Assembly (NCBI GenBank): GCA_038884755.1
Contig: JAWABJ010000001.1
Span: 493,947-557,946 of the forward strand
Origin: Candidatus Norongarragalinales archaeon
GTDB taxonomy: Archaea > Micrarchaeota > Micrarchaeia > Norongarragalinales > Norongarragalinaceae
DNA length: 64,000 nucleotides
Direction: 5' to 3'
Shown here: positions 9,347-48,372 of the stretch, one piece after another
How positions within the stretch are numbered: position 1 is the first letter of the stretch
How the letters are laid out: each line of letters starts with the position of its first letter
Program-made: the position numbers and the translations under genes
Notes under the pieces: generated by a model
What the model was told of the DNA's origin: nothing
The model's input: the letters and a program-made list of their open reading frames with translations, nothing else
Database searches by the model: none

Positions 9347-10432
9347 TTATTTTTTGTGTATCAACACCACGTCCCCATCCTGCAGCTTGTGCGTAAGCCC
9401 GACTTTCTGGCCCGGGTGTTTTGCCGATTTCCCCCAAACTTCCGCGAATTTGAACAGCGAGCGCAAGTCCCTGTGCACCAAATCGCACAAATCGGAGACT
9501 GTCGAACCTGAACGCATCATGAGGGGCGCTTCCAAATCCGCTTTCTCGAACTTGCTGCGAGTGTAGATTCGGATTAGATTGAGTTTTCGGTAAATCTTTT
9601 CCTTCAATTCTTCAATCCCGAGCTTTTTTTCCGCCGAAACTTTCACGAAAGAATCATCGATTTTTTTTGCCTCTCCCTTTCCAAGCAAATCCACCTTGTT
9701 TACTACCGCAAGCGAGGGAACGAACTTCCTGTTTCCGAGAATCGCGTCGATCAGGCGGTCGACTGTCGCGTCTTCCTTGATTATTACTGTTGCACTGAAA
9801 ATGCCGTATTCGCCGAGCACTGCTGCAACAGTCTTGTCGTTCAAGTGGGTGGGCTTTACCAAATAGTGCACCTCAATTCCGCCTTTCTCCGTTTTTTCTA
9901 TTGAAATGTTTGGTGGCTCTTGGTCCAAGCGGATGCCGATATCATGCAACTCTTGCTTGAGCTTCGAGGCGTAGTTAACGTCCTTCACGTCCAGGATTAA
10001 AAGGACCAAATCTGCATTGCGCGCGACTGCAAGCACTTCTTTCCCCCGCCCCTTGCCTTTGCTTGCGCCAGAAATGATTCCCGGCAAGTCTAAAAGCTGT
10101 ATCCTGGCGCCTTTGTAGTGCATTATTCCCGGAATGACTGTAAGAGTAGTGAAAGCATACGCGGCGGTCTTGGACTCCGCGCCCGTAAGCGCGTTGAGCA
10201 GAGTTGATTTTCCCACGGACGGCAGTCCGATGAAAACTACGGTGGCGTTTCCCGATTTCTTTACGTCGAAGCCCTTTCCCGCGCCAGTTCCTCCCCTGCT
10301 TCCGGACTCCGCTTGCTCACGCAATTTCGCAAGCTTCGCCTTGAGCATTCCCAAGTGGTGTTCCGTCCCCTTGTGCTTCTGGGTTTTTTCCATCTGCTGC
10401 TCGATTTCAGCGATTTTCTCGGTAATGCCCAT
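9347..10432 (-). CDS. Obg/DRG-family GTPase with C-terminal TGS domain
   Basis: P-loop GLPSVGKSTLLNALTG, G-domain motifs (DLPG, NKVD), C-terminal TGS-like segment (GDVVLIHKK). Confidence 0.8.
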   Translation of the reverse strand: MGITEKIAEIEQQMEKTQKHKGTEHHLGMLKAKLAKLREQAESGSRGGTGAGKGFDVKKSGNATVVFIGLPSVGKSTLLNALTGAESKTAAYAFTTLTVIPGIMHYKGARIQLLDLPGIISGASKGKGRGKEVLAVARNADLVLLILDVKDVNYASKLKQELHDIGIRLDQEPPNISIEKTEKGGIEVHYLVKPTHLNDKTVAAVLGEYGIFSATVIIKEDATVDRLIDAILGNRKFVPSLAVVNKVDLLGKGEAKKIDDSFVKVSAEKKLGIEELKEKIYRKLNLIRIYTRSKFEKADLEAPLMMRSGSTVSDLCDLVHRDLRSLFKFAEVWGKSAKHPGQKVGLTHKLQDGDVVLIHKK

Positions 10433-10563
10433 TTCGCGTTTAAACCCCGTTTTGAAACAGCGCGGCTAACAGCGCAATTCGCAATAATATTGCAGAAGGA
10501 GATTTTTCAAGGCTTGGTTGCCTGAAAAGAAAAAAATAAAAAAAAAGAGAAGAAGGGAGAGAA

Positions 10564-10716
10564 TTACTTCTTCATCAAGCCCTTGCGCTTTACGTACGCC
10601 CAGAGCTTCTTGGTCATTTCGCTGGGAGCGATGCTTCCAGAGCCGAAAACGTCTTCGAGAGAGTCGTCGCAGCCCCTGAATGACACGGTCATTCCACCAA
10701 ATGCCTTTCTTGCCAT
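10564..10716 (-). CDS. Small ORF (50 aa) with SWIB/MDM2-like motif; not in the ORF track (below size cut-off)
   Basis: ATG...TAA, MARKAFGGMTVSFRGCDDSLEDVFGSGSIAPSEMTKKLWAYVKRKGLMKK; the segment PSEMTKKLWAYVKRKGL resembles the conserved SWIB helix (PRTEVVKKLWxYIKxxNL); A/T-rich TATA-like tract about 20-30 nt upstream on the coding strand. Confidence 0.35.
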   Translation of the reverse strand: MARKAFGGMTVSFRGCDDSLEDVFGSGSIAPSEMTKKLWAYVKRKGLMKK

Positions 10717-10845
10717 AGTCACTTCACCTCGTTTTCAAAAAAATACCCTCTCCCACCCTTGTTTTCTAGAGGTAGAATCGAGTTAAACTATTAAGACATT
10801 CGATTTAAAAACCTATTTTTACGAGGGAGAAAATCGTTTTTTCCT

Positions 10846-12087
10846 CTAGGAATAGGTTTCCTCCTGGCTTTGCTTGTAACGCCAGAAGAGGTACCCGCCG
10901 GCTATCACCACGAAGAAAACTATCCAAGGCAGGTAGTTCGACTGGCCGCCGGCAGGTTCGGAAAGGATTTCCTGCTGCGGGCGCGTGCAAGATTCGTATT
11001 TGCGCTTGAGCTCGTCGTACTGTATTTTGAGGGCGTCGAGCATTGCGGGCAGCTTTTCGAACGCCTTGGCGCTGCCCCCCGCCATGAGCGTCTGCACGTC
11101 GCTCCACCTGCTTTTTATCGAATCCGCCTCTTCCGACAGGCCGCACAAATCCAAGTTCGATTCGGAAAGGAAAACGGTTTCGATTTCCGGCTCGAGCAAA
11201 TCGTACTTCGCCCGGACGTCGACCGTGATTTTCTTGTAGTTGAACGACGCTATGGAATCGTTCACCCACTTGTCGCGCGAGGCTTCCAGTTTTTCAATGC
11301 TCTCGTTCGGCTTCAGGAAGCGCAGTTGCTCGAACAAGTCCACCTTCAACCGCATGTTCTCCAAATTCTTAACTATGTTCTCGTTGTCCGGCGCGGGAAT
11401 GTTCGACTTGAATATTTCCGCCTGTTTCTTGGAAATCTCTTCGTTGTAAGCGTCGTACGCCGCGATGAATTCCGCGGATTTCGAAAACGCGCTTTTGTAG
11501 TAGTCCAGCAGTCCGGAAAGCGCGAAGTCGCTCAAGTCGCTGTCCACCTGCTGTTCCAGGCTCGTGCCGTCGCTCACCATGCCGTCCAGCTCCAGGGCAA
11601 AACGCTGGAGTTCGGAAGACTTAGCGTCTATTGCGTCGAAGTTAGTGTTCGGATAGGACTGCTGGGTTTTGGAAGCCAAAGCCGCAAGGGAATTCGCGTT
11701 GCGGTCTATCGCCAAAAGCGTCTGCCTCACGGTGGTTTCCATGTCGGAAAAGGAAATCTTGTTGCGGCCCACGTACTCGTCGATTATGCCGTAGTTGTAA
11801 ACGCTCTTTCCGACCGCGTCAAGCCTCGACAAGTCAGTTTCCACTTCCCCCGCCTCTTCGGAAACCGCAATGAAGATTTTTTTTGCGGAGTAGATTGAAG
11901 GCGCGAAAACGTAGTAGTATTCGGAAAGGACGAAGAACGGGCGGGGCAAGAGTCCCACTCCAGAGTCCAAGTACGGCTTCGCCTTCACCGCCGCCTCTTC
12001 CGAAGAAATGCCGGAAACAGGCGTGAAAAGGGAAAGCAAAACGAGAAGCAAAGCGATTGCTTTTCCGAACTCGCGCATGCTTTGCAT
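10846..12087 (-). CDS. Secreted or membrane-anchored protein of unknown function (signal peptide, acidic coiled region, C-terminal TM anchor)
   Basis: 413 aa; N-terminal signal peptide (AIALLLVLLSLFTPVSG), C-terminal hydrophobic helix (WIVFFVVIAGGYLFW); no recognised catalytic motif. Confidence 0.55.
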   Translation of the reverse strand: MQSMREFGKAIALLLVLLSLFTPVSGISSEEAAVKAKPYLDSGVGLLPRPFFVLSEYYYVFAPSIYSAKKIFIAVSEEAGEVETDLSRLDAVGKSVYNYGIIDEYVGRNKISFSDMETTVRQTLLAIDRNANSLAALASKTQQSYPNTNFDAIDAKSSELQRFALELDGMVSDGTSLEQQVDSDLSDFALSGLLDYYKSAFSKSAEFIAAYDAYNEEISKKQAEIFKSNIPAPDNENIVKNLENMRLKVDLFEQLRFLKPNESIEKLEASRDKWVNDSIASFNYKKITVDVRAKYDLLEPEIETVFLSESNLDLCGLSEEADSIKSRWSDVQTLMAGGSAKAFEKLPAMLDALKIQYDELKRKYESCTRPQQEILSEPAGGQSNYLPWIVFFVVIAGGYLFWRYKQSQEETYS

Positions 12088-12128: not shown

Positions 12129-12806
12129 ATGGTTATGCAATTGCGGGTGGTTTTGGTCGAACCCAAGTGGGACGTGAACGTGGGAAGCATATGCCGGGCG
12201 ATGAAAAACTTCGGCGCCAGCGAGCTTTACCTTGTCAAGCCAAAGGCAGAGCTCGGAGTGGAGGCAATAAAATTCGCGAAACACGCGAGGGAAATACTGG
12301 AAAAAGCCACGAAAGTCAAAACGATGCGCCAAGCGTTTGAAGGTTGCACGCTTGTAGTCGGAACGACTGGAATACTCAGGCGTTTCAGAAAGAAAATGCT
12401 GAAAAAATGCGTTTCGGCTCGAGAGGTGAAAAAGTTTTTCGGAAAAAACGATAAGGTAGCACTGGTTTTCGGGAACGAAGAGCACGGACTTAGCGACAAG
12501 TTTTTGGGCGAATGCGACGTCGTAGCGTTCATCCCTTCCAACCCGCGCTATCCCGTGCTCAACCTTTCGCACGCGGTCGCAGTAATGCTTTACGAGCTTT
12601 ACGCTGCGAAGGGGGAAAAGCAGTTGAAGGAAATTCCGGCTGCGCCGCGCCACAAGCTCGAAAGGCTCGAAAAGCTTTTTTTCGAATTCGCTTTGCGCAA
12701 CAAAACCATTCGCGACCCGAAGAAAGTGGCGACGGCGTTCAAGCGAGTTCTCCGCAGGGCGAGGCCTTCCGAAAAAGAAATCCAAGCGCTTTTCCCGGCG
12801 TTTTGA
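12129..12806 (+). CDS. SPOUT-class RNA 2'-O-methyltransferase (TrmJ/TrmH-like)
   Basis: 225 aa; SpoU-type layout (VVLVEPKWDVNVGSICRAMKNFG ... ALVFGNEEHGLS ... NLSHAVAVMLYE). Confidence 0.7.
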   Translation: MVMQLRVVLVEPKWDVNVGSICRAMKNFGASELYLVKPKAELGVEAIKFAKHAREILEKATKVKTMRQAFEGCTLVVGTTGILRRFRKKMLKKCVSAREVKKFFGKNDKVALVFGNEEHGLSDKFLGECDVVAFIPSNPRYPVLNLSHAVAVMLYELYAAKGEKQLKEIPAAPRHKLERLEKLFFEFALRNKTIRDPKKVATAFKRVLRRARPSEKEIQALFPAF

Positions 12807-48174: not shown

Positions 48175-48372
48175 CGCCGGAGGAGAGATTCGAACTCCCG
48201 AGTCCTTGCGGACACTGGTTACCTTTCCCTGCCTTGCCTTTCTTTTTGTAAAAAGAAAGGCGGAGGCACCGCGAAAGAAAAACACTAGGTTTCTTTTCGG
48301 TCGCCTGCATTTTCTTTGCCAAAGAAAAGGCGGGCTTCAAGACCAGCGCGATAACCACTCTGCCACTCCGGC
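48175..48372 (-). tRNA. tRNA-Ser (anticodon UGA), type II, with an unusually long ~115-nt intron at 37/38 (plus-strand coordinates 48221-48335)
   Basis: On the minus strand: acceptor GCCGGAG/CTCCGGC, D-arm GCA-GAGTGGTTAT-CGC (one A.C mismatch), anticodon stem CTGGT/ACCAG, loop C-T-TGA-A + intron + A, 15-nt variable hairpin TGTCCGCAAGGACTC, T-arm GGGAG-TTCGAAT-CTCTC, discriminator G. Mature length about 83 nt. Confidence 0.7.

What the first reader, a model, noticed from the sequence alone, without database searches (positions are those of the whole stretch)
10564..10716. Unannotated 50-aa ORF with a SWIB/MDM2-like helix
A clean ATG-to-TAA ORF (below the ORF-track cut-off) on the minus strand, in an otherwise empty 400-bp gap, encodes MARKAFGGMTVSFRGCDDSLEDVFGSGSIAPSEMTKKLWAYVKRKGLMKK. 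Its C-terminal part resembles the conserved core of SWIB/MDM2 domains (chromatin-associated in eukaryotes and some bacteria). A TATA-like tract precedes it. A mini SWIB-like protein in an archaeon would be unusual.
Basis: partly seen in the sequence, partly recalled or inferred. Interest (0 to 1): 0.45.

Follow-up and report, generated by a model that had tools for sequence, protein, structure and literature searches.

The report
Half-size SWIB domain mini-protein gene
This is a real, strongly conserved 50-amino-acid gene encoding just one of the two repeats that make up the SWIB/MDM2 chromatin-protein fold; it probably pairs with itself to rebuild that fold, and it is widespread in tiny DPANN archaea and a few bacteria but has not been described.

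Summary
The ORF at 10564-10716 (-) exists exactly as described. It is a real gene: GenBank already calls it a hypothetical protein of a Candidatus Norongarragalinales (DPANN) archaeon. It has more than 140 homologues of about 50 aa and relatives in 163 species-level genomes. All 80 loci examined keep the ORF intact with the stop at the equivalent position. dN/dS is about 0.2, and ribosome-binding sites and T-run terminators are conserved.

The SWIB similarity is real but covers only half a domain. Pfam SWIB gives E=2.7e-5 over profile positions 7-38 of 74, just below the curated cut-off. Profile-profile comparison gives 97% probability to the first SWIB repeat and about 63-74% to the second. 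Natural 96-aa proteins made of two such units exist, and the AlphaFold model of one retrieves only SWIB/MDM2 structures (TM about 0.6).

My best reading is a single-repeat "semi-SWIB" that homodimerises into a SWIB-like fold. It is basic (pI 9.8), and some relatives carry histone-H1-like lysine-rich tails, so it is probably a nucleic-acid or chromatin-associated architectural protein. Dimerisation and function are inferred, not shown. There is no conserved gene neighbourhood, and I found no paper describing it. I rate it a new variant of a known kind, of moderate to high interest for fold evolution and DPANN chromatin biology.

The parts
10564..10716 (-). Coding sequence of a 50-aa basic protein (5.5 kDa, pI 9.8) that forms a single SWIB/MDM2 structural repeat. 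Predicted order of elements: strand (about residues 9-13), short helix (20-24), long helix (31-45), short strand (48-49).
   Evidence: sequence and translation; Pfam SWIB E=2.7e-5, profile 7-38/74; family alignment; invariant F6 G7 G8 G25 P31 M34 K36 W39 K43; 80 of 80 loci intact, same stop position; dN/dS about 0.22; codon-position entropy 0.65/0.49/1.49; AF2 pLDDT 89.3; pI.
10724..10730 (-). Shine-Dalgarno-like ribosome-binding site GAGGTGA, 7 nt upstream of the ATG.
   Evidence: Sequence. An SD-like motif lies 4-18 nt upstream of the ATG in 67 of 70 homologous loci. Function is inferred.
10803..10811 (-). TATA-box-like tract TTTTTAAAT, a candidate archaeal promoter element about 90 nt upstream of the ATG. 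A second A/T tract, TATTTTTTTGAAAA at 10732-10745, is an alternative.
   Evidence: Read directly from the sequence. Not tested; no transcription start data.
10525..10550 (-). T-rich tract (T9, T7 and T4 runs) starting 14 nt after the stop codon, resembling an archaeal oligo-T terminator.
   Evidence: Sequence. A run of five or more T within 60 nt after the stop occurs in 54 of 70 homologous loci. Function is inferred.

Best explanation
The ORF is a real, expressed, stand-alone gene for a 50-aa basic protein that is one structural repeat (half) of the SWIB/MDM2 fold. That fold is built from two similar strand-helix-helix repeats related by a pseudo-dyad. The single-repeat protein most likely forms a symmetric homodimer that reconstitutes a SWIB-like four-helix, beta-capped module, much as semiSWEET half-transporters dimerise to mimic SWEETs. 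The resulting small, positively charged module most likely acts as an abundant architectural protein bound to nucleic acid or chromatin. Stand-alone bacterial and plastid SWIB proteins behave this way; an MDM2-like groove that binds a helical peptide of a partner protein is a second possibility. Shown here: the gene is real and under purifying selection; it is homologous to SWIB; it covers only one repeat; it is widely distributed; covalent two-unit relatives exist whose model is a SWIB fold. Inferred: homodimerisation, nucleic-acid binding and cellular role.
For: Real gene: 149 homologues, nearly all 47-58 aa. 163 species-level genomes hold a relative, and 80 of 80 fetched loci have an intact ORF with the stop at the equivalent position. 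Synonymous sites are near saturation while pN is about 0.23, median dN/dS is 0.22, and third-position entropy is 2-3 times that of positions 1 and 2. SD-like motif in 67 of 70 loci and T-run in 54 of 70; gene GC tracks host GC (r=0.94, 28-71%). Half-SWIB: Pfam SWIB E=2.7e-5 covering profile 7-38/74 only, and 81 of 108 members hit SWIB, the only family hit. PDB profile hit to UAF30 SWIB at E=5e-4. hhalign to canonical SWIB gives first half 97% (E about 1e-11) and second half 63-74% (E about 3-7e-5), whereas the canonical halves match each other at only 18%. No SWIB continuation in any frame downstream. Pairing: natural 84-98-aa proteins are two tandem units (P0134, P0150, P0170, P0179, P0256). 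Their two units are 53% identical (hhalign 99.4%), and in P0179 and P0164 the units together span SWIB profile 3-69 and 5-73 of 74. The AF2 model of P0134 (pLDDT 80.8) gives a Foldseek top 50 made up entirely of SWIB/MDM2-fold chains (1v31 E=1.2e-3, TM 0.61/0.63; RSC6, BAF60a, MDM2/MDMX, eIF2D SWIB domain; probability 0.9-1.0). One genome has two adjacent single-unit genes (L043). The single-unit AF2 model is confident (pLDDT 89.3) with the same element order as each tandem unit. Nucleic-acid role: pI 9.8, family median 10.1. About 20 of 236 relatives carry long K/R-rich, histone-H1-like tails fused to the unit. The stand-alone SWIB protein Wcw_0377 binds heparin and binds all along the Waddlia genome by ChIP-seq (PMC6426960). 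Plastid SWIB-4 binds DNA, compacts nucleoids and complements an E. coli hns mutant (Melonek 2012, as reviewed in PMC4154389).
Confidence: 0.6

Rival explanations
1. The dimer's main job is protein-peptide recognition: it forms an MDM2-like hydrophobic groove between the two long helices and binds an amphipathic helix of a partner protein, acting as an adaptor or regulator and not as a DNA-binding protein.
For: The best-understood activity of the fold is peptide binding in the cleft formed by the two repeats (MDM2-p53; my own knowledge, with many MDM2-peptide complexes among the hits). The invariant hydrophobic residues M34, L38 and W39 lie on the long helix.
Against: No conserved neighbouring gene that could encode a partner. 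Basic pI and recurrent H1-like K/R tails in relatives point to nucleic acid. Conservation of 60-70% identity across archaea and bacteria argues against a lineage-specific partner.
Confidence: 0.2
2. The protein works as a monomeric, or otherwise non-SWIB-like, basic mini-protein, for example a ribosome- or RNA-associated factor. Its SWIB similarity would then reflect descent only.
For: It is small, basic and extremely conserved, like ribosome-associated proteins. In this window it sits next to a DRG/Obg-type ribosome-binding GTPase and near a SpoU RNA methylase. eIF2D contains a SWIB-like domain. The fused two-unit gene also lies about 4 kb from a DRG-like GTPase and next to RtcB and Archease.
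Against: The neighbourhood is not conserved across 80 loci. A 50-aa chain with eight large conserved hydrophobic residues is unlikely to be stable alone (inference). Tandem fusions that model as a SWIB fold argue for pairing.
Confidence: 0.12
3. The half-domain does not pair with itself but complements, or poisons, another SWIB-type protein (heterodimer or 'microprotein' regulator).
For: Some genomes have two paralogues of different subtypes: adjacent genes in L043, and two loci (L057, L075) from one Rokubacteria assembly.
Against: Among the 80 best loci, 79 distinct assemblies are represented, so most genomes show one copy there. This is a lower bound, because only the best 80 of 163 were kept. 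No second SWIB-like sequence occurs in the 64-kb window.
Confidence: 0.07
4. It is a chance ORF or a decaying remnant of a full-length SWIB gene.
For: The ORF is short, its Pfam score is just under the curated cut-off, and only half the domain is matched.
Against: Length and stop position are conserved in 80 of 80 loci, dN/dS is about 0.2, SD and terminator signals are conserved, and there is no downstream SWIB remnant in any frame.
Confidence: 0.01

Closest known systems
Canonical SWIB/MDM2 domain (Pfam PF02201; BAF60/SMARCD, yeast RSC6/Snf12, UAF30, MDM2/MDMX N-terminal domain, eIF2D SWIB domain)
   Same: Significant sequence homology. Same motif pattern: strand, L-x-x-V/I-F/I-G, P/S-x-x-x-x-K-K-L-W-x-Y-I/V-K-x-x-x-L. 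Two-unit relatives of this family model as this fold.
   Different: The canonical domain is one chain of about 74-90 residues with two diverged repeats. This protein is a single repeat of 50 aa that ends right after the first long helix. The canonical domains are mostly eukaryotic, embedded in large multidomain or multi-subunit chromatin or ubiquitin-ligase machinery; this one is a stand-alone prokaryotic gene.
Stand-alone prokaryotic and organellar SWIB proteins (Chlamydia CT460, Waddlia Wcw_0377; plant plastid SWIB-4)
   Same: Small, basic, stand-alone SWIB-only proteins. Wcw_0377 binds along the whole genome (PMC6426960). SWIB-4 has an adjacent H1-like motif, binds DNA and compacts nucleoids (PMC4154389). 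H1-like tails also occur in relatives of the present family.
   Different: Those proteins contain the complete two-repeat domain (about 85-110 aa), whereas this family has one repeat. The taxa differ: Chlamydiae, Verrucomicrobia and plants versus DPANN archaea, Rokubacteria/Methylomirabilota and a few other bacteria. No experimental data exist for the present family.
Half-size homodimeric counterparts of internally duplicated folds (for example semiSWEET versus SWEET transporters). This is an analogy from my own knowledge, not a homology.
   Same: A prokaryotic half-length protein corresponds to one repeat of a pseudo-symmetric, mostly eukaryotic domain. Single-unit, adjacent-gene and fused forms all exist in nature.
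   Different: The fold is unrelated and soluble. Dimerisation here is inferred, not demonstrated. The direction of evolution (ancestral half versus secondary fission) is unresolved.

Membership tests
SWIB/MDM2 domain superfamily (PF02201) | Statistically significant sequence similarity to the SWIB profile | tested here: met
   Pfam E=2.7e-5, the only family hit. 81 of 108 family members hit at E<1e-3. hhalign 97% probability, E about 1e-11, to canonical SWIB domains. Profile hit to UAF30 SWIB (7z0o_G) at E=5e-4.
SWIB/MDM2 domain superfamily (PF02201) | Score at or above Pfam's curated gathering threshold (25 bits) | tested here: not met
   24.3 bits for this protein. Other single-unit members score 15-23 bits, while two-unit relatives score 45-65 bits.
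SWIB/MDM2 domain superfamily (PF02201) | Complete domain: both structural repeats in one chain (about 74 profile positions) | tested here: not met
   The match covers profile positions 7-38 of 74. The protein ends 3-5 residues after the first long helix, and no continuation exists in any downstream frame. The end point is conserved in 80 of 80 loci.
SWIB/MDM2 domain superfamily (PF02201) | SWIB/MDM2 three-dimensional fold (four-helix open bundle capped by two small sheets) | tested here: inconclusive
   The single-unit model (pLDDT 89) gives no significant structural hit, as expected for half a fold. The model of the two-unit relative P0134 hits only SWIB/MDM2 structures at TM 0.55-0.69 (one outlier at 0.48) and probability 0.9-1.0.
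Proposed single-repeat 'semi-SWIB' homodimer | Self-association of two chains into a SWIB-like module | not testable with these tools
   Only single-chain prediction was available. Indirect support comes from natural tandem fusions and adjacent paralogue genes.
Stand-alone nucleoid-associated SWIB proteins (Wcw_0377/CT460, SWIB-4) | Small basic stand-alone protein | tested here: met
   5.5 kDa, pI 9.8, net charge about +4.5; family median pI 10.1. No conserved operon partner.
Stand-alone nucleoid-associated SWIB proteins (Wcw_0377/CT460, SWIB-4) | Direct or indirect DNA binding, or nucleoid compaction | not testable with these tools
   Only circumstantial: K/R-rich H1-like tails in about 20 of 236 relatives, plus the literature on full-length homologues.

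The most novel reading that the evidence does not exclude
These 50-aa proteins are living representatives of the pre-duplication ancestor of the SWIB/MDM2 fold. On this reading, the chromatin-remodeller and p53-binding domain of eukaryotes arose by duplication and fusion of a prokaryotic homodimeric half-domain. Every stage is still observable: single genes, adjacent paralogue genes (L043), fused near-identical tandems (P0134 type) and the diverged canonical domain. The family would also be a previously unrecognised major chromatin protein of DPANN archaea.
Probability: 0.25. Interest if true: 0.75.

Novelty: new variant of a known kind. Interest (0 to 1): 0.58.

Why it matters
If the homodimer model holds, this is a natural half-domain for a medically and biologically prominent pseudo-symmetric fold (SWI/SNF BAF60, MDM2). 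That makes the duplication-fusion origin of the fold directly testable with real proteins. It would also add a widespread, unannotated, highly conserved small basic protein to the thin catalogue of candidate chromatin or nucleoid proteins in DPANN archaea and Rokubacteria. There is a practical point too. Single-unit members score just under Pfam's SWIB threshold, and 50-aa genes are often dropped by ORF-length cut-offs, so the family is systematically under-annotated.

Tried and rejected
(1) Frameshifted or truncated full-length SWIB gene: rejected. The three downstream frames show no SWIB second half, and the short form is conserved.
(3) Conserved gene neighbourhood: all-against-all clustering of flanking ORFs in 80 loci plus the window found no widely shared neighbour. 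The largest cluster (18 loci) is the antisense shadow ORF of the gene itself.
(4) Phage or defence origin: no PHROGs or PADLOC hits, and only 5 IMG/VR contigs out of 2.9 million carry it.
(5) NCBIfam: only weak partial hits to the SWIB tail of topoisomerase-SWIB fusion models.
(6) Second copy in the window: none.
(7) Literature: searches for SWIB with archaea, DPANN, archaeal nucleoid-associated proteins, or half-domain and pseudo-symmetry found no description of single-repeat SWIB proteins. I could not retrieve a citable open-access source for the two-repeat description of the MDM2 fold, so that point rests on my own knowledge (Kussie et al. 1996; SCOP fold note) plus the hhalign result here.
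(8) My first attempt to split the canonical domain into halves used the wrong boundary (h1/h2). I redid it correctly.
(9) Organism names for the tandem proteins were not available. Their context suggests an archaeon.

Full report
OBSERVATION. The minus strand of 10564-10716 reads ATG...TAA and translates to MARKAFGGMTVSFRGCDDSLEDVFGSGSIAPSEMTKKLWAYVKRKGLMKK. It lies in the 413-bp gap between a 413-aa ORF of unknown function with a C-terminal membrane segment (10846-12087, -) and a DRG/Obg-type GTPase with a TGS domain (9347-10432, -). GAGGTGA sits 7 nt upstream of the ATG. A/T-rich TATA-like tracts lie further upstream, and T9 and T7 runs follow the stop. That order belongs to the Micrarchaeia, which are DPANN archaea.

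IS IT A REAL GENE? Yes. A word-indexed search of 5.8 billion proteins returned 149 homologues, and 108 of the 120 listed are 58 aa or shorter. The alignment consensus is MAKKAFGGYxISFKGxxDSxEDVFGSxxIAPSEMTKKLWAYVKRKKLxxK, with nine invariant positions. An exhaustive HMM search of 1.84 billion cluster representatives found 666 proteins at E<1e-3 and 131 at E<1e-10, and most matches end at the protein's C-terminus.

A scan of one genome per species found relatives in 163 stretches. The best 80 loci come from Micrarchaeota, Iainarchaeota, Aenigmatarchaeota, Woesearchaeota, Nanoarchaeota and Norongarragalinales, and 13 come from bacteria (Rokubacteria/Methylomirabilota, a deltaproteobacterium, a Sulfotelmatobacter and an uncultured bacterium). 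All 80 have an intact ORF whose stop lies at the equivalent position. Against the window gene, synonymous differences are near saturation (median pS 0.76) while pN is 0.23. For 399 less saturated pairs the median dN/dS is 0.22. Per-codon-position entropy is 0.65, 0.49 and 1.49.

An SD-like motif precedes the ATG in 67 of 70 loci, and a run of five or more T follows the stop in 54 of 70. Gene GC follows host GC (r=0.94) across 28-71% GC, so the gene is resident in each host and not a recent contaminant. One bacterial locus, L048, has a D-Ala-D-Ala carboxypeptidase gene about 1 kb away on a high-GC contig, confirming a bacterial host.

WHAT IS IT? SWIB (PF02201) is the only Pfam family hit: E=2.7e-5 and 24.3 bits against a cut-off of 25. 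The match covers residues 18-49 of the protein but only positions 7-38 of the 74-position profile. 81 of 108 family members hit SWIB at E<1e-3, and nothing else is hit. The family profile hits the SWIB domain of UAF30 (7z0o_G, E=5e-4), and part of it also aligns to the second half of the Arabidopsis SWIB domain 1v31 ('sFFNCDAALQKVFG' against 'sFkgCkdsledVFG'). The sequence downstream of the stop has no SWIB continuation in any frame. So the protein is one half of a SWIB domain, and that is its conserved, native length.

The SWIB/MDM2 fold is described as two similar structural repeats related by an approximate dyad (my own knowledge: Kussie et al. 1996; SCOP fold note). I tested this with profiles. 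The single-unit family aligns to the first half of eight canonical SWIB domains with 97% probability (score 52.5) and, in the same register, to the second half with 74% (score 25.8, E 2.7e-5). The canonical first and second halves match each other at only 18% (score 17.3). The single unit is therefore a sequence bridge between the two canonical halves. One caveat is that the canonical profile came from only 8 domains of 3 proteins.

HOW DOES HALF A DOMAIN WORK? The exhaustive search revealed natural proteins of 84-98 aa made of two consecutive units (P0134, P0150, P0170, P0179, P0256) and longer proteins with two units (P0164, P0205). In P0134-type proteins the two units are 53% identical (hhalign 99.4%), and each matches SWIB profile positions 3-37. 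In P0179 and P0164 the pair of units spans positions 3-69 and 5-73 of 74. I obtained ten further tandem sequences, aligned them (A3) and predicted the structure of P0134 (pLDDT 80.8). All of its top 50 Foldseek hits in the PDB are SWIB/MDM2-fold chains: 1v31 (E=1.2e-3, TM 0.61/0.63), RSC6 in RSC, BAF60a (1uhr), BAF/PBAF subunits, many MDM2/MDMX structures and the SWIB-like domain of eIF2D, at probability 0.9-1.0.

The single-unit model is confident (pLDDT 89.3) and has the same order of elements as each tandem unit: short strand, short helix, long helix, short strand. One genome (L043) carries two adjacent single-unit genes of different subtypes, each with its own GAGGTG ribosome-binding site. 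By Rosetta-stone logic, the single-unit protein most likely forms a dimer that reconstitutes a SWIB-like module. Among the best 80 loci, 79 different assemblies are represented, so most genomes show one copy there, which favours a homodimer. That count is a lower bound, because only the best 80 of 163 were kept.

WHAT DOES IT DO? There is no conserved neighbourhood. Clustering of flanking ORFs from 80 loci and the window found only lineage-level synteny, and the biggest cluster is the antisense shadow of the gene itself. The fused two-unit gene is likewise a stand-alone gene in an archaeal context of RtcB, Archease and a DRG-like GTPase. Function therefore has to be inferred.

The protein is basic (pI 9.8, net charge about +4.5; family median pI 10.1). 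About 20 of 236 relatives carry long lysine/arginine-rich tails of the histone-H1 type directly fused to the unit, for example MAKRRKKKVAKKKKKVAKKKKVVRKKKKAKKKKKAAKKGKKA-FGG.... For full-length stand-alone SWIB proteins, published data point the same way. Waddlia Wcw_0377 was isolated by heparin chromatography and gives ChIP-seq signal along the whole genome (PMC6426960). Plant plastid SWIB-4, which has an H1-like motif next to its SWIB domain, binds DNA, compacts nucleoids and complements an E. coli hns mutant (Melonek et al. 2012, as reviewed in PMC4154389).

My preferred function is therefore a small architectural protein associated with nucleic acid or chromatin (about 0.4). An MDM2-like peptide-binding adaptor is the main alternative (about 0.2), and a ribosome- or RNA-associated role is a minor one. 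The gene is not phage- or defence-linked: there are no PHROGs or PADLOC hits and only 5 IMG/VR contigs carry it.

COMPARISON WITH WHAT IS KNOWN. The protein is homologous to SWIB/MDM2, but it fails two membership criteria for the domain as defined: the Pfam gathering score (by 0.7 bits) and completeness (one repeat of two). I file it as a new architectural variant, a single-repeat 'semi-SWIB', within the SWIB superfamily and not as a SWIB-domain protein. Full-text searches combining SWIB with archaea, DPANN, archaeal nucleoid-associated proteins, or half-domain and pseudo-symmetry found no description of such proteins. The only DPANN-related mention concerns full SWIB/MDM2 genes exchanged among Patescibacteria.

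VERDICT. The gene is ordinary in being a real, conserved, already-called hypothetical protein. It is unusual in being a naturally occurring half of a well-known pseudo-symmetric fold, widespread in DPANN archaea and a few bacterial phyla, with single, adjacent-gene and fused forms all present in nature. Whether the single unit is ancestral or arose by fission is open. Novelty: new variant of a known kind. Interest: 0.58.

Noticed in passing
window 48175-48372 (-): Rfam tRNA model hit (34.3 bits, full model 1-71) spread over 198 nt, which ARAGORN did not report. It is probably an intron-containing archaeal tRNA, and it is the only tRNA signal in 64 kb.
   Followed up: no
window 10846-12087 (-): The 413-aa ORF immediately upstream of the mini-gene has an N-terminal hydrophobic segment and a C-terminal transmembrane segment and matches no Pfam family (only a chance-level FixQ hit).
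   Followed up: no
window 9347-10432 (-) and 12129-12806 (+): The neighbours are a DRG/Obg-type GTPase (MMR_HSR1 + MMR_HSR1_Xtn + TGS) and a SpoU-family RNA methyltransferase. Both relate to translation, but the adjacency is not conserved in other genomes.
   Followed up: partly
L043 3762-3959 and 3995-4144 (+): Two adjacent half-SWIB genes of different subtypes (a 'GKCGCS...WKHVKGSHGG' type and a 'KPDAALAVIIG' type that looks more like canonical SWIB), each with its own GAGGTG ribosome-binding site. This could be an intermediate between single and fused forms, or a heterodimer pair.
   Followed up: partly
proteins P0124, P0053, P0168, P0225, P0236, P0201, P0281 and others: About 20 of 236 family members carry 12-81-residue K/R-rich, histone-H1-like tails (most are N-terminal). 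P0255 has K-rich stretches on both sides of the unit.
   Followed up: partly
proteins P0218, P0203, P0232, P0164, P0176, P0268: The single unit is fused to other uncharacterised domains: a repeated acidic helical C-terminal module in P0203 and P0218, an SH3/Tudor-like C-terminal segment in P0232, and unknown N-terminal domains in P0164, P0176 and P0268. P0164 and P0218 showed no Pfam family other than SWIB above threshold, and none of the five scanned against PHROGs had a hit. P0203 was not scanned, and P0176, P0232 and P0268 were not scanned against Pfam.
   Followed up: partly
L081-L085 (IMG/VR contigs): Five contigs classified as viral, of 23-188 kb, carry a family member. I did not check whether these are true viruses of DPANN or bacterial hosts or misclassified cellular fragments.
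   Followed up: no
L001 3976-4281 (-) and equivalents in 18 loci: A long antisense 'shadow' ORF overlapping the mini-gene appears conserved across loci only because the sense gene is conserved. This is a trap for ORF-length-based gene callers.
   Followed up: yes
family-wide (alignment A2): In the cases scanned individually, single-unit members score about 15-24 bits on Pfam SWIB, below the 25-bit gathering threshold. This fits the many members without a precomputed Pfam label, and one JGI member is auto-named 'chromatin remodeling complex protein RSC6'.
   Followed up: yes
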